IMG/VR virus record: IMGVR_UViG_3300033146_002242 | Span: 1 to 64,000 of that record | Reading direction: 5' to 3' (one strand) | DNA from: a virus | DNA length: 64,000 nucleotides | Shown here: one piece after another, positions 882 to 54,382 of the stretch | Layout: each line of letters opens with the position of its first letter | Position numbering within the stretch: position 1 is the stretch's first letter | Notes under the pieces: model-generated | Seen by the model: only the letters and a program-made list of their open reading frames with translations | What the model was told of the DNA's origin: nothing | The model's database searches: none | Made by a program: the position numbers and the translations under genes

Positions 882-1241
882 GTGAATAATCGTCTTTTTT
901 ATTTTTTTGTTTCAATTCTGCCAAAGAAGTCCGGTGCCATAGTGGCTCAGTGTTTTGTCTGGAGATCAGATGAAACACTGGTGATTGATTCAATTGAATC
1001 ACCGGACCACATAAACCTGGTAAATCGTATATCAGGTTTATTATATAACGGTATCAAGTCGGTACTGGGTAGACTTGGTATTAAACAAGTCCATATCGGG
1101 AACACCCCGTATGGCATAACAGAGTTATTTTTCACTTGGGATGGGCCATGGCACGACATCGTAAAAGATGTCGATAACCCGATTCTCCCGATAACTCTAT
1201 ATTCTGATGCACGGCGGCAGGTGAGACTGTGCATCGAGTAA
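882..1241 (+). pseudogene. Probable C-terminal gene fragment (AIVAQCFVWRS..LVIDSIES)
   Basis: Abrupt GC rise near 915; the N-terminus is AT-rich filler overlapping an opposite-strand ORF. Confidence 0.35.
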
Positions 1242-1627
1242 TAAAAACAATAACCCGTTTAGAAAGGGAGATTTATCCCTATTCTTATCGACAGATGCAA
1301 TGGGTTAAATCCTTTAAAGATTTAGCCGAATATTGCGAAAGTCGCCCATATGTCCACGTATGGGAAACGGGTTATTTATTATATACGAAGCGAGAAATCG
1401 TGGACCTCGCTTCAAAATCTCCAATGTCCATATCCCAGTTAATGGATATTGTGAGAAAATTAAAATCTTTTTATGGAAGTCATTCCATCGAAGCTGATTT
1501 CCGTGAAAAGACTTCATATAAAATTTTAACCTTTGGTGAACGAAAAAATATCATTCATATTATATCTGATTATGAATATGAATGGGATAGAGAAATATTC
1601 CATGAAGTGGAATTTAAATTTCTCTAA
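1229..1627 (+). CDS. Hypothetical protein, possibly GNAT-like fold
   Basis: 132-aa ORF; GYLLY..EIVDLAS pattern. Confidence 0.5.
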   Translation: MHRVIKTITRLEREIYPYSYRQMQWVKSFKDLAEYCESRPYVHVWETGYLLYTKREIVDLASKSPMSISQLMDIVRKLKSFYGSHSIEADFREKTSYKILTFGERKNIIHIISDYEYEWDREIFHEVEFKFL

Positions 1628-1783
1628 TTTCGTTCACCCCCAGTTTTCATGATGTTTCTGGGTTATCAAAAAACATCATATGTTATTTAGAAAATTTAAT
1701 TTTTTTTTGTTTTAATAAACCAATCTCACTATATCAAAAATTAATAAATATTAAAATATTTATTTTAAAAACTTCATACCAAC

Positions 1784-1797
1784 TATATATATTAATT
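1784..1797 (+). promoter_or_regulatory. Putative early promoter TATATATATTAATT
   Basis: Identical 14-mer at 1784 (+), 2227 (+) and 51335-51348 (-), each heading small early-type genes or RNA leaders. Confidence 0.55.
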
Positions 1798-1865
1798 AGT
1801 GTATAAGAGAAATTGATTTCTTATACCTTGTAGATGATCCACTACAAGTAAAATATTAAACGGAA

Positions 1866-1943
1866 ACCGCAGACCGGGTGCGGGATATAAGACGGTAAAG
1901 TTCCTTAATAGGATGGGAACTTTTAAAAATAAAAAAGATCCTA
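1866..1943 (+). ncRNA. Tandem H-type pseudoknots in leader of small ORF (CptI-like PK1 plus PK2)
   Basis: PK1 CCGC/GCGG with ACCG/CGGT; PK2 AGTTCC/GGAACT with loop TAGGAT pairing to ATCCTA; covaries with the copy at 2484. Confidence 0.65.
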
Positions 1944-1962
1944 ATTGCTACAAGGAGGTATT

Positions 1963-2151
1963 ATGAACGAATGTAAACACCCCGCAACTCTGGACGATAT
2001 TCGCAAATTTAACATGGACGATAAAAACCCACATCATCCGAAGGGACGGGTGTGGGAAACACATAACGAGGTATTCTATATACCTCGTTATGATGGAGTG
2101 GAAGGAACAGATGGAGCAGTCACTGACATCCTTCCTCTTGATCTTGAATAG
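1963..2151 (+). CDS. Small hypothetical protein
   Basis: AAGGAGG RBS before ATG 1963. Confidence 0.6.
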   Translation: MNECKHPATLDDIRKFNMDDKNPHHPKGRVWETHNEVFYIPRYDGVEGTDGAVTDILPLDLE

Positions 2152-2156
2152 TAATA

Positions 2157-2197
2157 ACCCGCAGCTGGACCTACTGCGGAATATAAATTAATAGGTC
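2157..2197 (+). ncRNA. Divergent copy of the CptI-like pseudoknot
   Basis: CCGCA/TGCGG stem, loop GACCTA pairs with TAGGTC, same AATATAAA linker; compensatory changes relative to other copies. Confidence 0.6.
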
Positions 2198-2302
2198 TTT
2201 TTTTTATTTTAAAAAAATATTTTTATTATATATATTAATTATTGCTATAAAATATATTTGATATTTTATAGTATTATTTCAACTTTAAAAAGGAGGCTAG
2301 TG

Positions 2303-2443
2303 ATGAGAAAATCACTTGAGCTGTTCTTTTTGGAATTGTCTGTTAAGTTCCATCCAACCCATCCCATAGTCAGAGATATTCTATATAAGATATCTTTGAC
2401 CCTGGGCAATTATCCAAACACGGATGATTGGGGTTGGGATTAA
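2303..2443 (+). CDS. Small hypothetical protein
   Basis: AAGGAGG RBS upstream of MRKSLELFF. Confidence 0.45.
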   Translation: MRKSLELFFLELSVKFHPTHPIVRDILYKISLTLGNYPNTDDWGWD

Positions 2444-2451
2444 CTTGTTGC

Positions 2452-2772
2452 GTACAGGGAATTCGATTGGCGAATCCCTGTACACCGCAGACCGGGCGCG
2501 GGATATAAGACGGTATATCTCCTCATACGGATGGGAGATCTCATAAATAAAAAAGATCCGCTAACCCCCGGAGAATAGTAGCTAACTCCGTTATCAAAAA
2601 AGCATGTAACTGGGTGATGCAATGTCGTCACCTGCGGTACTGTAGAGTCAAGTACCCGTCTAGGAGTTGGGAACCTAGGGACATATACACGTTAAAACTC
2701 AGCATTCCCGTGTGTGGATTAATTCGGGACAGATATAGCAAGACTATATCGAAGCCAACATGGTGGTATACC
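2452..2772 (+). ncRNA. ~320-nt multi-hairpin, multi-pseudoknot structured RNA
   Basis: GC-rich non-coding island with many stems (GTACAGGGA/TCCCTGTAC, PK1, ATCTCC/GGAGAT, CGGAG/CTCCG, GGTGA/TCACC, GGTAC/GTACC, CTAGG/CCTAG, TCCCG/CGGGA, GATATAG/CTATATC) and loop-to-linker complementarities. Confidence 0.65.
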
Positions 2773-2798
2773 ATGCTCTGCATTTTTTTTTAATCAAA

Positions 2799-5039
2799 TT
2801 ATCCACATGCTGAATAACCACATGAATGGCAAATAGAACAACCTGATTCATAAGATATAATTCCACCACAATCAGGACATGAACCTCCCTTGTGAATATC
2901 TGTAAAATTTTCAATATCATTTTTTTTGTCTTTATTACCATTCATTTTAATATGTTTTTTAATACATTGTGCAATAGCATCAGCACATGATAAAACTTTA
3001 TTTTCACCAAATCCAATTGGTCTATGACATGATATACCAATTAGTTGTTTAACAATTTCTTCTGGTTTTTGACCACTTCTACATGCTAAAGAAATTAATC
3101 GTCCTATAGCTTCACATTGACTGGATGAACACCCACCCGCTTTTCCAATTGTATTAAAGATTTCAAAAACATTACCATCTTCATCTTCATTAATTGTTAT
3201 ATAAATATCACCACAACCAGTTGTAAATTGATATGTATATCCTTTTAATACATTAGGTCTTTCTTTTTTAATTCTTTCTTTTTGAGCATATTCTTCTTTA
3301 TTTTCTTTTTTTGATTTAATATTTAAAACTTGATTTTGACGGCAATTATTTCTATAGACAGTTACACCTTTACAACCACTTTCAAAAGCCATCATATATG
3401 CTTTTTCAATATCTTTTTCTGTAGCTGATTCTGGAAAATTAATTGTTTTACTAACAGCATTGTTTGTATATTTTTGAAAAGCTGCTTGAATTTTAATATG
3501 TTCTTCTGGTTTAATATCATGTGCAGTTTGTAAAAATAATTTATATTCAGATGGGATATCTTCACAATTTTGACATGTTCCTTCTTCTGCAACTTGTTTG
3601 ATTATTTTTTCTTTATCAATTTTATATCTATCATTTATTTCATCAAGAATTTTATCAAAAACTGGATTTACTTCGAAAAATTCTTTGCCATCCATAATAC
3701 GTCTGACATATGCTAATGAAAATAATGGTTCGATACCACTAGAACAATTAGCTATAATTGATATTGTTCCGGTAGGCGCAATAGTTGTTCTAGTGGAATT
3801 ACGTATGGGGTCTTCTTTGCACTCTGGATATGCACCTCTTTCTTCTGCTAATTGTATTGATTTACCTTTAGCTGTATTATTAATAACTTGCATAACCACA
3901 GATGCAAATTCAACTGCTTTTTGAGAAGAATATGGAATACGTAATTTTATCAATGTATCCGCAAATCCCATAACTCCTAATCCAATATTACGAGTTTTTT
4001 TAGTTTCTTGTTCAATCATTTTTAATGGATACTTATTCATTTCAATTACATTATCTAAAAAATGAACAGCATTATCAACAATGGTTTTCAAACTATTGAA
4101 ATCAAAATATCTTTTTTCTTCATCAACAAATTTTGATAAATTAATTGAACCTAGATTACAACTATCACCAGCTCGCAACACCTGTTCACCACATGGATTA
4201 GTAGCTTCATATTTACCTAAATGTGGTGTTGGATTATAATCATTCATTCTATCAATAAAAATAATTCCAGGTTCACCTGTTTTCCATGCTTGATGTACAA
4301 TTTTATTAAAAACTTCTTTTGCGTTTAATTGTTTAACTATTTTATTATTTCGTGGATTTATTAAATTATATGTGGTGTTATTTTTTACTGCGTCCATAAA
4401 AGAATCGGTGACAGTAACAGAAATATTGAAATTATTTAACTGTGTCAAATCGGCTTTACATTCAATAAATTCAAGTATATCAGGGTGGTCAATACGAAGT
4501 ATACCCATGTTAGCCCCCCGCCTTGTACCACCTTGTTTGACCTCTTCTGTAGCCGCATTATATATTTTCATAAAGGAAATTGGACCTGATGAAACACCAG
4601 ATGTTGATTGCACTTTATCATTTGATGGTCTTAATCGAGAAAAAGAAAACCCTGTACCACCACCAGCTTTATGTATCATTGCAGTATGTTTTAATGTATC
4701 AAATATACTTTCCATTGAATCTTCAATAGGTAAAACAAAACAAGCTGATAACATTGGATTTTTCTTACCAGCATTCATTAATGTTGGAGAGTTTGGCATA
4801 AATTTTTGATTTATCATCATTGAAAAAAATTTATCAGCAGTTTCATCTATATATTCAGATCCATAATTCAAATCACCTTTGGCAATAAAATCAGCAACTC
4901 TATGAAACATTCCATCGGGAGTTTCTAAAAAATTCATATCTTTATCTTTCAATAAATATCTTGTTTCTATTACGTTTTTAGATGTTACTGTTAAATTAAA
5001 AATATTTTTTTCCAACATGAATATTCTCCTATTGAGCAA
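2799..5039 (-). CDS. nrdJ: Adenosylcobalamin-dependent (class II) ribonucleotide reductase with C-terminal TSCPD/Zn-ribbon region
   Basis: [45 protein letters not shown] motifs; C-terminal [17 protein letters not shown]; likely start 5018 (MLEKN). Confidence 0.92.
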
Positions 5040-6699: not shown

Positions 6700-6760
6700 C
6701 TTTATTTAACGGGCCACCGGCTAAGGTCCCAATTAATAAAAATTTAAAGCCGGTTAAAAG
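6700..6760 (-). promoter_or_regulatory. Structured 5' leader (stem plus possible pseudoknot) abutting the RBS
   Basis: On the mRNA ACCGGCT pairs with AGCCGGT; loop GGGACC could pair with downstream GGCCC; AAGGAG follows. Confidence 0.45.
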
Positions 6761-50265: not shown

Positions 50266-51198
50266 TTAGTTATTCCAGTTTATCTGACCTGGAGTAACTT
50301 TTCCATAACAGTTAATGGTGATGTTGAAATTAGCCTGAGCTATTTCAACATCACCATTTTCTGTTATTTTAATTTTCACCGGGGCCGGCGAAACAACCGC
50401 CAACCCCGGCTTTCCATTGATATCAATTCCCGACCCAGGGATTACAATAGCTGGATCGGGGATATCTTCTTCATCGCCATCACTACAAATGATGGCGATG
50501 TCATCTACACCTCCCTTCTTTTTTAATACACCTCCGATTACAAGGTGTTCCATTTTGCTATCATTGGGGTCGGCTGCGAACCACGCCGCTAAATCCCGCA
50601 GCCGATCGTTTAATATTTTTTTCTCAATAGGTGAATCTGGTACCAGGCCTCGATTCACCCACACTTCAAAACCCCCAGCTTCCACCTTGTAGAAACTGGG
50701 AGTAACTAATTGCTTAGCCTTGTCCATAAAGGACTCGGCTTTTTTATTTTTTGTTGCGGTTTCTGTCTTATTATTAATCAAGTCAGTGGAGCAATTCCTG
50801 ACTTGATTAATGGCCCATGGCGCTGCTGTTGCCATGATTCCAATAGCAACAGCAGCAACTATGTGTCCTTGAAGGAGATTGGCCGACTCCTCCAAACCCT
50901 TGCCGACAATCAGGTTCTTTACGAACCAAATTCCGGCAAGGGAACCAATTCCTAGAATAATTAACCCGCCCAATGGATGGTTTCCCATCCACCAGCGGGT
51001 TATATAAAAACCAGCTGGGGCCGAGCATATTGCCCAGCACCACAGCCAGAATCCCCTATGGGATTCATCAAGACGACGAATCCCATAGAATGCCCCAATA
51101 ATGGTCAGGAAGGTCCCGACCATTAATAGATCATTTACTGTTATAGCGATGCTGTGCAGCACCGCCATTACTTGTTCATAAATAGTTTGTTCGTTCAT
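50266..51198 (-). CDS. Multi-pass membrane protein, GC-richer than flanks
   Basis: Four hydrophobic helices then a soluble domain; AAGGAGG RBS. Confidence 0.7.
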   Translation of the reverse strand: MNEQTIYEQVMAVLHSIAITVNDLLMVGTFLTIIGAFYGIRRLDESHRGFWLWCWAICSAPAGFYITRWWMGNHPLGGLIILGIGSLAGIWFVKNLIVGKGLEESANLLQGHIVAAVAIGIMATAAPWAINQVRNCSTDLINNKTETATKNKKAESFMDKAKQLVTPSFYKVEAGGFEVWVNRGLVPDSPIEKKILNDRLRDLAAWFAADPNDSKMEHLVIGGVLKKKGGVDDIAIICSDGDEEDIPDPAIVIPGSGIDINGKPGLAVVSPAPVKIKITENGDVEIAQANFNITINCYGKVTPGQINWNN

Positions 51199-51231: not shown

Positions 51232-51263
51232 TACCGTTTTATATTCCGCGCCCGGTCTGCGGT
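51232..51263 (-). ncRNA. CptI-like pseudoknot, distant copy in a gene leader
   Basis: ACCGCAGACCGGGCGCGGAATATAAAACGGTA, nearly identical to copies at 1866 and 2484. Confidence 0.65.
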
Positions 51264-51503
51264 CTCCTATTTAATTTATATACCATAGTAGGATTAACTA
51301 TGGTCACAATAACAATAAGATTGTTATTAGTATTAATTAATATATATAATAAAGTTGAGTTAAATAAATTGATAATTTATTATTTTTATTATAATTAAAT
51401 AGTGTTATTATATATATTCATTCTTGATATTTGAGATTGGTTTTTATTTTTAGAGAACATAAAAATACATTCATATATTATATTGCAAGGAGGTTTAAAC
51501 GAT

Positions 51504-52094
51504 ATGAATTCTATAGAGAAACCATCATATAATTATGATTTGATTATTTTATTTTCGGGTGGTGCTGATAGTGCCATGTTACATGATTTAGCAATATCAT
51601 CAAAAAGACATCCAATTTATTTAATGATTGATTATGAACAATTGCATAAAGAAGAATTACAATATGCTAAAAGATTGTTAGAATATTGTAAATCTATTCA
51701 ACATTCACAAACTGTAAAAATTCAGAATTTAAAAATAAATTCTGGTTTGACAGGTGATGGTGAAGTAAATCAATATAATAATGTTCATCCTTTTCATGTA
51801 CCATCTAGAAATCTTATGTTTATCTCGATTGCAGCTTCTATTGCAGAAGCTAATAATATTGATACTATTTGGTATGGCGCTGATTTATCAGATAGGGAAA
51901 ATTTATTTCCTGATTGTTATCAGGAATGGATTATAAAAGTTAATGAACTTTTGAAAATAAATGGAAGTAAACCAATAAAATTGGAAGCTCCATTAATAGG
52001 AATGACAAAAGATTCTATTTTACAATATTTGAAATCTAGAGGTTATAGAGAAGAAATTATTTTTTCTGGATATGGTAATTTAGATAAAAATTAA
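51504..52094 (+). CDS. queC: QueC-like (7-cyano-7-deazaguanine synthase family) protein lacking the C-terminal Zn cluster
   Basis: FSGGADS, DYEQLHKEE, VPSRNLMFISIAASIA, FPDC; late-promoter motif at 51454-51467. Confidence 0.8.
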   Translation: MNSIEKPSYNYDLIILFSGGADSAMLHDLAISSKRHPIYLMIDYEQLHKEELQYAKRLLEYCKSIQHSQTVKIQNLKINSGLTGDGEVNQYNNVHPFHVPSRNLMFISIAASIAEANNIDTIWYGADLSDRENLFPDCYQEWIIKVNELLKINGSKPIKLEAPLIGMTKDSILQYLKSRGYREEIIFSGYGNLDKN

Positions 52095-53484: not shown

Positions 53485-54015
53485 ATGAAAGCTAATATTG
53501 AAAAAGAAAAACTTTTTAAAAAGTTTATAGATAATGGAGAAATTTGGGCTGATAAATATGGTAATATTTATAAGAAAAATGGAACTTGTAAATATCATTT
53601 AAATAATACTGGTTATTATAGATTATCATATAAATCAATAACTATTTTTGTGCATAGGTTGGTTTGGATTTATTTCAAAGGATTGATATATGATGATAAG
53701 CTACAAATTAATCATATTGATGGGGATAAATTAAATAATACTTTGGAAAATTTAGAAATTGTTGATAATAAAACTAATACAAAACATGCTATACTAATGG
53801 GTTTACGAACACCCATATCAGAAAAAACAAAACAATATTTTTCTGAAAAGATAAGGGGGTGCAAAAATATAAATGCAAAATTTACACAATCCGATGTTAT
53901 TTTATATAGGTATTTATATAAAATGGGCAAAATAAATATAAAAACAATTTCTGAAAAATACGATATAACACAACGAAGTGTAAAAAATATGTTGAGTGGA
54001 AAAACATATAATTAA
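53485..54015 (+). CDS. Free-standing HNH homing endonuclease with C-terminal HTH
   Basis: [30 protein letters not shown]. Confidence 0.88.
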
Positions 54016-54022
54016 GTTATAT

Positions 54023-54382
54023 GCCCGGATGGCGGAATAGGTAGACGCAAGGGACTTGACTCGTAAATAAATTGAGCGGCATATTTGAAAAAATATGTTT
54101 GAATCGGGTGAATTCAGGGGAACCTTCTTAATTTTATTTAGAATTAAATGGCAATCCTGAGCCAAGACATCAACGCTTTGATGGAAGGTGCAGAGACTAG
54201 ATGGTGAGGAAAGATACGTTTCTCGTAAAACATCATAAGCGCCCGACACCTAAGGATTTTATTTTAATCTATGGTGATGATATAGTCCAGACCACAAACA
54301 TTGTAAAATGGCAATGAAAATTGTAGTGGTACGAAAATCCCTCGTTCGTAAGAACGTGCCGGTTCGATTCCGGCTCCGGGCA
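54023..54382 (+). tRNA. trnL: tRNA-Leu(UAA) interrupted by a group I intron
   Basis: Exons 54023-54057 and 54334-54382 rebuild the cloverleaf with AGGGA-CTTAAAA-TCCCT and a long variable arm; AACA-TATAAT-TA motif at 54003-54014. Confidence 0.92.
54058..54333 (+). mobile_element. Group I intron (IC3, trnL-type), 276 nt, no ORF
   Basis: GGCAATCCTGAGCC, GTGCAGAGACTAGATGG and ATATAGTCC core motifs; 5' exon ends in U, intron ends in G; inserted between U34 and A35. Confidence 0.9.

What the first reader, a model, noticed from the sequence alone, without database searches (positions are those of the whole stretch)
2452..2772. ~320-nt string of pseudoknots and hairpins: ornate ncRNA or multi-decoy array
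After PK1 comes PK2, whose stem and pseudoknot both covary between copies. The stems are AGTTCC/GGAACT at 1899 versus ATCTCC/GGAGAT at 2517; the loop-tail pairings are TAGGAT/ATCCTA versus CGGAT/ATCCG, each across an A-rich AAATAAAAAAG linker. A third unit CGGAG/CTCCG follows with an A-rich tail. Later hairpin loops are complementary to downstream single strands (ATGTC/GACAT, GAGT/ACTC, GTTGG/CCAAC, GTGT/ACAC). There is no credible ORF. It could be a cassette of different antitoxin or protein-sponge RNAs, or a new large phage ncRNA.
Basis: partly seen in the sequence, partly recalled or inferred. Interest (0 to 1): 0.72.

Follow-up and report, generated by a model that had tools for sequence, protein, structure and literature searches.

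The report
Repeated pseudoknot leader module, not ornate RNA
The first third of this stretch holds two real, repeated RNA pseudoknots, one from an uncatalogued family also found in soil-bacterial mobile elements and marine phages; the other two thirds show no sign of special folding or coding.

Summary
Partly confirmed. Window 2452-2601 holds a 13-bp hairpin, two H-type pseudoknots (PK1-B 2484-2514, PK2-B 2517-2560) and a hairpin with an A-rich tail. PK1+PK2 duplicate the module at 1866-1943, which lies between a phage promoter and the ribosome site of a 62-codon gene. PK2 keeps both helices through three compensatory pairs.

The claimed later pseudoknots (2600-2760) are at chance level. Local folding there is no better than shuffles.

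New here: PK1 belongs to a pseudoknot family (CCGCAG-loop with ACC-CUGCGG-RAUANAA...GGU) absent from Rfam 15. In Chitinophagaceae and Sphingobacteriales mobile elements it sits 8-12 nt before the DUF932 start codon, just after ssb. Its first stem covaries there. A model built only from those soil copies ranks the phage copies first to third in the window. Marine phages carry it too.

But there are no tandem repeats and no toxin gene.

Best reading: a duplicated cis-acting mRNA leader or junction module, followed by about 200 nt of decayed cassette or plain 3' UTR.

Other leader families before DUF932 and ssb genes were noted on other genomes.

The parts
2227..2243 (+). Promoter-like motif TATATATATTAATTA of the transcript that contains the finding. 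A -35-like TTTAAA/TTAAAA starts at 2208-2209.
   Evidence: The motif occurs only three times in the 118-kb record: 1784(+), 2227(+) and 51348(-). It gives sigma-70-like matches. The same motif precedes the ORF310 homologue of a related phage, L196.
2303..2443 (+). 46-codon ORF with a strong Shine-Dalgarno site. It is the upstream cistron of the same transcript.
   Evidence: The region folds unusually well (z = -6.4 for 2320-2439). No family match was found.
2452..2483 (+). Hairpin H0, 13 bp with one bulge and loop ATTGG. It abuts PK1-B.
   Evidence: Sequence and MFE fold.
2484..2514 (+). PK1-B, an H-type pseudoknot. S1 is CCGC 2485-2488 / GCGG 2498-2501. S2 is ACCG 2491-2494 / CGGT 2511-2514. 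The linker is GATATAAGA.
   Evidence: It is an exact core repeat of 1867-1895 and, with 2 mismatches, of 51262-51234(-). Its sister copies A, C and D are the three best matches in the window to a model built from soil sequences only. B itself was not listed at E <= 10.
2517..2560 (+). PK2-B, an H-type pseudoknot. S1 is ATCTCC / GGAGAT. S2 is CGGAT / ATCCG. The A-rich linker is CTCATAAATAAAAAAG.
   Evidence: Three compensatory pairs relative to PK2-A at 1899-1943. The descriptor scan finds both copies.
2569..2601 (+). Hairpin CGGAG/CTCCG that buries a GGAG, followed by the tail GTTATCAAAAAA. It looks like a degenerate third unit without a second stem.
   Evidence: The tail is identical to 1662-1673 (family D14), which is the linker of the pseudoknot at 1639-1678.
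2602..2757 (+). GC-rich segment (43-47% GC) with five short local hairpins. No structural, coding or homology signal was detected.
   Evidence: z is about 0. Loop complements are at chance. The open frame has non-coding codon-position GC. There are no paralogues, no phage or plasmid DNA match, no protein homologue and no Rfam match.
2759..2791 (+). Hairpin CATGGTG-GTA-TACCATG, then 7 nt, then T9. This is the probable but non-canonical 3' end of the + strand transcript.
   Evidence: Sequence. The consensus terminator scan did not call it, because the T run starts 7 nt after the stem.
1827..1962 (+). Sister leader. It comprises a hairpin or weak pseudoknot (1827-1864), PK1-A (1866-1896), PK2-A (1899-1943) and the Shine-Dalgarno site AAGGAGG (1952-1958), ahead of the ATG at 1963 of a 62-codon gene.
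   Evidence: The gene product is on record as a called gene.
2157..2205 (+). PK1-D. S1 is CCGCAG 2159-2164 / CTGCGG 2174-2179. S2 is GACCTA 2168-2173 / TAGGTC 2192-2197. T8 follows. It lies 5 nt after the stop codon of the 62-codon gene.
   Evidence: 31.1 bits, E = 5e-7 against the soil-only model R2. It is 31/36 identical to the soil consensus.
51232..51303 (-). Leader of the 310-codon gene. It comprises pseudoknot PK0-C (CCATAG/CTATGG, TCCTA/TAGGA, linker TATATAAATTAAA) at 51303-51265 and PK1-C at 51263-51232. An A/U-rich spacer and a hairpin burying the Shine-Dalgarno site follow.
   Evidence: The model R2 matches are 17.1 bits (51303-51270) and 15.2 bits (51266-51222).

Best explanation
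The stretch is not one large RNA machine. Its first 110-150 nt (2452-2601) are a leader-type module made of a hairpin, pseudoknot PK1, pseudoknot PK2 and a hairpin with an A-rich tail. This module is a diverged duplicate of the one that sits between a phage promoter and the ribosome-binding site of the 62-codon gene at 1963.

PK1 belongs to a small pseudoknot family with the layout CCGCAG, a loop containing ACC, CUGCGG, RAUANAA plus an A/U-rich linker, then GGU. The family recurs on mobile elements.
- In Chitinophagaceae and Sphingobacteriales conjugative-type elements it fills the ssb-DUF932 junction and ends 8-12 nt before the DUF932 start codon.
- In marine phages it follows a small ORF.
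- In this phage it sits in two 5' leaders and after two stop codons.

Inferred mechanism: the pseudoknots act in cis on the mRNA. Folded next to or between cistrons, they set how much the following cistron is translated, or protect the message. The strongly conserved stem and linker sequence may serve as an operator for a protein, in the way the phage T4 gene 32 pseudoknot does for the single-strand-binding protein.

The remaining 200 nt (2561-2757) occupy the slot where the sister unit has its gene. They most likely are a decayed or start-less cassette gene, or simply a 3' UTR, ending at a hairpin plus T9.

Shown: the repeats, the covariation, the family, and the positions relative to genes. 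Inferred: action in cis, the effect on translation or stability, and the decay of the downstream segment.
For: Repeat and covariation:
- The PK1+PK2 repeat is 83% identical over 76 nt. PK2 has 3 compensatory pairs. The PK1 core has 0 matches expected by chance.

Gene context:
- The sister copy A is directly followed by AAGGAGG-N4-ATG of a called gene.
- Copy C is followed by an A/U-rich spacer and a hairpin that buries the Shine-Dalgarno site of a 310-aa gene.
- The promoter-like motif occurs only at these three units. It is conserved in a related phage.

The family elsewhere:
- About 45 metagenome contigs carry the motif before a gene starting MAHNINFN. That gene is DUF932, and ssb lies upstream.
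- In an unbiased sample of 80 DUF932 loci, 34 carry it.
- S1 is 99.5% paired, with two GC-to-AU compensations and G-U intermediates on the sense strand. 0/500 shuffles reach the observed score.
- Hairpin insertions in the linker leave the GGUA partner in place.
- A model built from soil sequences only ranks PK1-D (E = 5e-7), PK1-C and PK1-A first to third in 64 kb.

Enrichment and the 3' part:
- Six of the 53 H-type descriptor hits in the whole record, both strands, fall in 1639-2560 (+).
- The 3' 200 nt have z about 0, loop complements at chance, no homologues, and a frame that looks non-coding.
Against: - There are no expression or probing data, so action in cis is inferred from position only.
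- The soil family was found with a pattern derived from the phage copies. The model's match to them is therefore partly built in. The match outside the pattern positions (about 13 of 20) is what argues for kinship.
- PK1-B itself was not reported by the soil model at E <= 10.
- PK2 has only two known copies, both in this record. No relative was found in IMG/VR.
- Copy B follows a gene rather than a promoter, and nothing translatable follows it. A cis-regulatory role for this particular copy therefore has no demonstrated target.
- An 81-codon open frame spanning exactly 2551-2793 has a chance probability of only a few percent (my estimate).
- The CptI-like build fits a trans-acting role as well.
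Confidence: 0.45

Rival explanations
1. Trans-acting decoy or sponge. PK1, and perhaps PK2 and the third unit, mimic type III antitoxin pseudoknots of the CptI type. They would soak up a host CptN-like abortive-infection ribonuclease or another RNA-binding defence protein. The same element in the leading region of conjugative elements would serve the same purpose.
For: - PK1-A and the published CptI repeat share topology and loop lengths. Both have a 5-bp S1, a 1-nt L1 and a 4-bp S2 containing ACC/GGU. The linkers are AUAUAAAU and GAUAUAAGA (PMC4627078; sequence).
- All carriers are mobile elements: phages, and ICE regions next to ssb, ParB-like and SNF2 genes.
- Stem sequence is conserved beyond what pairing needs, which suggests a specific partner.
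Against: - No tandem repeats occur anywhere. There is one copy per soil locus and per genome.
- No natural antitoxin array with this motif appeared in the metagenome scan.
- No ToxN-family gene is in the record.
- Copies sit in mRNA leaders a few nt from start codons.
- Type III antitoxins are specific to their own toxin, and CptI repeats differ greatly between loci (PMC3401426). The AUAUAA likeness may therefore be a generic solution for an A-minor loop.
Confidence: 0.15
2. The module is a working leader for a small protein encoded in the open frame 2551-2793. Translation would start at a non-canonical codon after the GGAG at 2570-2573 (ATA 2575; GTA 2578 is one change from GTG), or at GTG 2614 / ATG 2617.
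For: - The only long open frame starts right after PK2-B and runs to the T9.
- The layout matches the sister unit: PK1, PK2, Shine-Dalgarno site, gene, terminator.
- GGAG is buried in a hairpin, as in the leader of the 310-codon gene.
Against: - No canonical start codon lies at a usable distance from a Shine-Dalgarno site.
- GC at codon position 1 is the lowest (0.32), the reverse of all real genes tested.
- The frame runs through the terminator hairpin and the T run.
- It is not present as a called protein and has no homologue among 5.8 billion clusters.
Confidence: 0.12
3. Ligand-sensing tandem riboswitch. The PK1 family would be a small pseudoknot aptamer, built like preQ1-I, SAM-II or guanidine-III. 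It would gate translation of mobile-element genes in response to a ubiquitous metabolite or signal.
For: - The family shows very high sequence conservation of stem, loop and linker nucleotides across distant carriers.
- It is an H-type pseudoknot with an A-rich third loop ending next to the start codon.
- One phage copy lies beside a QueC-like gene.
Against: - No Rfam riboswitch family matches even at E <= 10 on short windows.
- No expression platform alternates with the aptamer in the soil copies.
- The regulated genes (DUF932, ORFans) suggest no ligand.
- The phage copies lie 35-95 nt from the start codons.
Confidence: 0.08
4. DNA-level element. The imperfect palindromes would mark junctions of imported gene cassettes, as recombination or nicking sites, and would have no RNA function.
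For: - The PK1 copies at 1866, 2157 and 2484 bracket the two small GC-rich genes.
- PK1-C sits exactly where the GC-rich 310-codon gene begins.
- The carriers are mobile elements.
Against: - G-U intermediates in the soil family pair only on the gene-sense strand.
- All copies have the same orientation as the flanking genes.
- The second stem and the linker are conserved, which a simple hairpin site would not need.
- No recombinase or endonuclease gene lies in the island.
Confidence: 0.07

Closest known systems
STAXI RNA motif (Rfam RF01728; Weinberg et al. 2010, PMC2864571)
   Same: It consists of small pseudoknots repeated two or three times in tandem. It lies on mobile DNA next to ssb, antirestriction, topoisomerase and integrase genes, and its function is unknown. 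The soil relatives of PK1 lie between ssb and DUF932.
   Different: STAXI is enterobacterial, with UUCG tetraloops. Rfam's model matches neither the phage nor the soil sequences. The tandem units here differ from each other.
CptI, RNA antitoxin of the CptIN type III toxin-antitoxin system (Rao et al. 2015, PMC4627078)
   Same: It is an H-type pseudoknot with a 5-bp first stem, a one-base first loop and a 4-5-bp second stem with GACC/GGUC. Its 8-nt linker is AUAUAAAU, against PK1's ACCG/CGGU and GAUAUAAGA.
   Different: CptI occurs as 1.9-3.4 tandem 40-48-nt repeats directly upstream of a CptN toxin gene and is cut out by it (PMC3401426). PK1 copies are dispersed, have no toxin gene nearby, and lie in mRNA leaders.
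Translational operator of phage T4 gene 32 (from established knowledge; mentioned in PMC10690425)
   Same: It is a 5' leader pseudoknot followed by an unstructured A/U-rich stretch that reaches the ribosome site. The leader of the 310-codon gene is built this way, and the soil family is adjacent to an ssb gene.
   Different: There is no sequence likeness. In T4 the operator precedes the ssDNA-binding protein's own gene, whereas here it follows ssb or precedes unrelated genes. No SSB gene lies in the 118-kb fragment.
GP20-a RNA (Rfam RF02991)
   Same: It gives the weak best Rfam alignment of the A leader. The shared layout is a 4-bp hairpin, a UUAAA-type linker, a second hairpin, an A-rich stretch and AGGAG.
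   Different: The score is 18.2 bits against a gathering score of 47.2, with E = 0.5 on 191 nt. This is a lead, not a match.

Membership tests
ssb-DUF932 junction pseudoknot of Chitinophagaceae/Sphingobacteriales elements (defined here; not in Rfam 15) | First stem CCGCAG/CUGCGG, with RAUANAA immediately 3' of it | tested here: met
   PK1-D has the full 6-bp stem and AAUAUAA. PK1-A, B and C have CCGC(A)/(U)GCGG plus GAUAUAA or AAUAUAA.
ssb-DUF932 junction pseudoknot of Chitinophagaceae/Sphingobacteriales elements (defined here; not in Rfam 15) | Loop segment containing ACC paired to a downstream GGU-containing segment (second stem) | tested here: met
   The phage has ACCG/CGGU and GACCUA/UAGGUC. 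The soil copies have UACC/GGUA, UACCA/UGGUA, ACCG/CGGU (L138) and ACCGC/GCGGU (L143).
ssb-DUF932 junction pseudoknot of Chitinophagaceae/Sphingobacteriales elements (defined here; not in Rfam 15) | Significant score against a covariance model built without the phage sequences | tested here: inconclusive
   PK1-D scores 31.1 bits (E = 5e-7). PK1-C scores 15.2 and PK1-A 14.7 bits (E about 0.1), yet they rank 2nd and 3rd in 64 kb. PK1-B is not listed. The family was found with a phage-derived pattern, so the test is not fully independent.
ssb-DUF932 junction pseudoknot of Chitinophagaceae/Sphingobacteriales elements (defined here; not in Rfam 15) | Position 8-12 nt upstream of a DUF932 start codon, downstream of ssb | tested here: not met
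   No DUF932 above cut-off and no SSB gene are in the record. The phage copies precede or follow ORFan genes.
Type III toxin-antitoxin antitoxin RNA (ToxI/CptI/TenpI) | Tandem direct repeats (about 2 or more) of a 31-62-nt unit | tested here: not met
   The repeat search shows dispersed copies 291-618 nt apart and no tandem array.
Type III toxin-antitoxin antitoxin RNA (ToxI/CptI/TenpI) | Toxin endoribonuclease gene immediately downstream | tested here: not met
   There is no ToxN_toxin (PF13958) match in the record, though the control genomes did not ring either. The island ORFs match nothing in PADLOC, Pfam, NCBIfam or PDB. CptN-specific models were not available to me.
Type III toxin-antitoxin antitoxin RNA (ToxI/CptI/TenpI) | H-type pseudoknot with an A-rich loop lying in the minor groove of stem 1 | tested here: met
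   This is met at the level of secondary structure only. The comparison used the published CptI repeat.
STAXI (RF01728) and other Rfam families | Match to the curated covariance model | tested here: not met
   No family reaches its gathering score in the island or in the soil loci. Nothing relevant appears at E <= 10.

The most novel reading that the evidence does not exclude
The CCGCAG...RAUANAA...GGU pseudoknot would be a portable RNA element that mobile elements of unrelated hosts (Bacteroidota conjugative elements, marine phages, this AT-rich jumbo phage) use against or through a conserved partner. It could be an antitoxin-mimic decoy for CptN-like abortive-infection ribonucleases. Or it could be a new protein- or ligand-operated switch that times 'arrival' genes. 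On this reading the string at 2452-2601 is a natural multi-unit version of it.
Probability: 0.2. Interest if true: 0.8.

Novelty: new variant of a known kind. Interest (0 to 1): 0.5.

Why it matters
Small conserved pseudoknots next to ssb, antirestriction and DUF932-type genes of mobile elements have been catalogued since 2010 (STAXI, radC) without any assigned function. This case adds a compact 40-45-nt family that is absent from Rfam 15. It has covariation support. It has a sharply defined position at the ssb-DUF932 junction, ending about 10 nt before the start codon. It is shared between conjugative elements of soil Bacteroidota and phages of other hosts, and its build parallels a solved antitoxin RNA. 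That makes it a tractable test object. One 45-nt RNA, one reporter fusion and one pull-down could tell whether such elements are translational operators, stabilisers or decoys. For the phage itself, it shows that the GC-rich islands are built from repeated units of promoter, pseudoknot leader and small gene.

Tried and rejected
- Rfam on the whole window and on short windows gave nothing beyond tRNAs and one group I intron at 54055-54306.
- BLASTN of the island against phage and plasmid collections found no match.
- The exact PK1 stem pattern in IMG/VR returned only chance hits in GC-rich contigs.
- A PK2 pattern in IMG/VR returned one hit, inside what reads as a coding region.
- Protein searches found nothing for the 132-aa, 310-aa and 62-aa products or for the open frame 2551-2790, by word index or by locus scan.
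- A full HMMER search found distant ORF310 relatives in related AT-rich phages. Their leaders lack PK1.
- Six-frame comparison of the island with the rest of the record found only the PK1-PK2 repeat.
- Loci related through the RNR gene were at most 45% identical and carried no PK1.
- L064 (inside an ORF) and probably L079 are chance pattern matches despite second-stem complementarity. Short S2 pairings alone therefore prove little.
- The weaker model hits in Chitinophagaceae genomes (25-30 bits) look like chance.
- The preQ1-I and guanidine-III likenesses that I recalled have no model support.
- Model R1 was built with a mistyped extra pair and was not used.

Full report
SETTING. The window is the first 64 kb of a 118-kb IMG/VR phage record with 26% GC, estimated 38% complete. 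The finding lies at the 3' end of a + strand island (about 880-2790) of 40-49% GC. The island sits between AT-rich minus-strand genes, one of which is a class II ribonucleotide reductase at 2799-5039.

The island contains, in order:
- A very strongly folding segment at 900-1260 (z = -7.2) that overlaps a 119-codon ORF.
- A 110-132-codon ORF (1229/1295-1627).
- A promoter-like motif at 1784.
- A structured leader and a 62-codon gene (1963-2151).
- A second copy of the promoter motif at 2227.
- A 46-codon ORF (2303-2443).
- The finding itself.

The motif TATATATATTAAT occurs only three times in the record. The third copy, at 51348(-), precedes a GC-rich 310-codon gene. The motif recurs before that gene's homologue in a related phage.

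THE OBSERVATION. The 76-nt repeat 1866-1941 / 2484-2559 is real, at 83% identity. The PK1 core occurs three times, with none expected by chance.

PK2 is supported by comparing the two copies. In stem 1, two of six pairs change on both sides (G-C to U-A, U-A to C-G). In stem 2, one pair changes on both sides (A-U to C-G), and the terminal pair is lost. By my rough estimate this has a chance probability of about 1e-3.

The third unit is a plain hairpin (2569-2573 / 2586-2590) without a second stem. Its tail GTTATCAAAAAA is identical to the linker of a further H-type pseudoknot at 1639-1678, just after the 132-codon ORF.

Beyond 2600 the claims fail.
- The 4-5-nt loop complements are as frequent in shuffled sequence (P = 0.15-0.22, with no 6-mer).
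- 120-nt windows between 2480 and 2800 fold no better than dinucleotide shuffles (z from -1.2 to +0.5).
- The modest whole-region z (-2.9) is exceeded on the opposite strand (-3.6).

One frame is open from 2551 to 2793. It has no usable start, a non-coding codon-position GC pattern (0.32/0.48/0.51) and no record or homologue.

WHAT PK1 IS. One metagenome scan used a pattern covering all four phage variants. An earlier first-reader note (e1-5953374) pointed out the fourth copy, at 2157-2197. The scan returned 72 loci. About 45 of them share a much longer conserved motif, AAACCGCAGCAGUACCGCCUGCGGGAUAUAAAUUAAAGCUGGGUAA, ending 8-12 nt before a gene that starts MAHNINFN.

That gene is DUF932 (PF06067), and the gene upstream is ssb. 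The neighbourhood also holds a second ssb, a TnsA-like gene, a ParB-like gene and an SNF2 helicase.

For a sample not biased by my pattern, I fetched 80 DUF932 loci from named genomes, mostly Chitinophagaceae, Sphingobacteriales and relatives. Of these, 34 carry the motif. The others have a hairpin plus T run, or nothing, at that place.

In the 32-sequence alignment:
- Stem 1 is 99.5% paired. Two pairs show GC-to-AU compensations and G-U intermediates that pair only on the gene-sense strand. No shuffle out of 500 reaches the observed score.
- Stem 2 (UACC/GGUA) hardly varies within this set. It changes coherently across subgroups: UACCA/UGGUA, ACCG/CGGU and ACCGC/GCGGU in soil copies, and ACCG/CGGU and GACCUA/UAGGUC in the phage.
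- Three loci insert a hairpin into the linker without losing the distal partner.

Rfam 15 has no matching family.

A covariance model built from the soil sequences alone ranks PK1-D (31.1 bits, E = 5e-7), PK1-C and PK1-A as the three best matches in the window. It also picks up the hairpin preceding PK1-C. On inspection this is a further pseudoknot of the same build (CCAUAG/CUAUGG, UCCUA/UAGGA, linker UAUAUAAAUUAAA).

A group of marine phage contigs carries the element 6 nt after the stop of a 63-codon ORF.

The test is partly circular, because the family was found through a phage-derived pattern. Agreement outside the pattern positions is what supports kinship.

HOW IT PROBABLY WORKS. In the phage the pseudoknots always lie on the sense strand of flanking genes. 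They sit either in a 5' leader downstream of the special promoter (copies A and C) or within 5-40 nt after a stop codon (D, B and the unit at 1639). In the soil elements the distal strand ends about 10 nt before the start codon.

This anatomy points to action in cis on the mRNA. The action could be control of initiation at the next cistron, protection of the message, or both.

The conservation of stem and linker sequence goes beyond what pairing needs. It suggests a bound partner, and the adjacency to ssb recalls the T4 gene 32 operator. None of this is shown.

Copy B has the module but no translatable gene behind it. The 200 nt that follow sit where the sister unit has its gene, and they carry no signal of any kind. 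I therefore read them as a decayed cassette gene or a plain 3' UTR, ending at a hairpin plus T9 (2759-2791).

THE DECOY IDEA. The published CptI repeat from E. rectale can be read from a primer in PMC4627078. It folds with a 5-bp stem, a one-base loop, a GACC/GGUC second stem and the linker AUAUAAAU.

The defining features of type III antitoxins are nevertheless missing. There are no tandem repeats and no adjacent toxin gene. The metagenome scan found no natural array with this motif. CptI repeats also differ widely between loci. I keep the decoy reading as a rival at about 15%.

COMPARISON AND NOVELTY. The nearest described kind is the STAXI motif: tandem pseudoknots next to ssb and antirestriction genes, with unknown function. 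There is no model match to it.

Earlier notes of this scan describe other, unrelated leader families before DUF932, ssb and radC genes in other phyla.

VERDICT. This is a new variant of a known kind. The 5' third of the finding is real and belongs to an uncatalogued, cross-phylum mobile-element pseudoknot family. The 'ornate 320-nt RNA' is not supported.

Noticed in passing
window 900-1260 (+): This GC-rich segment folds exceptionally well (MFE -126.7 kcal/mol, z = -7.2; opposite strand -5.5). It includes a four-way junction at about 929-1008. It overlaps a 119-codon ORF (882-1241) whose codon-position GC looks coding (0.49/0.35/0.42). There is no Rfam, Pfam or PDB match.
   Followed up: partly
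window 1400-1639, 2000-2119, 2320-2439 (+): Windows that lie largely inside the small ORFs (one runs just past the stop of the 132-codon ORF) fold far better than shuffles (z = -5.2, -7.2, -5.7, -6.4). This is unusual for coding sequence.
   Followed up: no
window 1827-1833 / 1842-1848 / 1948-1954: CTTGTAG can pair with CTACAAG in its own hairpin. It can also pair with an identical CTACAAG that overlaps the Shine-Dalgarno site of the 62-codon gene. This could be an alternative pairing.
   Followed up: no
window 6711-6754 (+): A strong H-type pseudoknot candidate lies in an intergenic gap: GGGCC/GGTCC and ACCGGCT/AGCCGGT (7 bp), with an 18-nt A/T-rich linker. It is on the strand opposite to the flanking genes.
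   Followed up: no
window 50266-51198 (-) and 51483-52094 (+): The 310-codon membrane-type gene has GC3 of 0.44, against 0.12-0.13 in core genes. Its homologues (26-32% identity) in related phages are AT-rich and share synteny: QueC-like gene, this gene, a 350-aa gene, a glycosyltransferase. The adjacent gene matches QueC (E = 1.5e-28, below the cut-off).
   Followed up: partly
window 54055-54306 (+) and 53485-54015: A group I intron (Rfam, 76.9 bits) lies beside an HNH-type endonuclease ORF. A further 2 kb at up to 54% GC follows (54.8-56.2 kb).
   Followed up: no
L040 7650-7825 (marine phage contig): After the PK1-like pseudoknot comes about 175 nt of non-coding sequence. It contains a tRNA-like minihelix (acceptor GGACGC/GCGTCC plus a GGTTCGATTCC T-arm) that ARAGORN does not call.
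   Followed up: no
L091 2009 and 4279: In a 62% GC contig, two copies of CTTCAATGAGGCCGCAGCGAACCGCTGCGGAATATAA lie 2.27 kb apart. This is a repeat of unknown kind that happens to match the search pattern.
   Followed up: no
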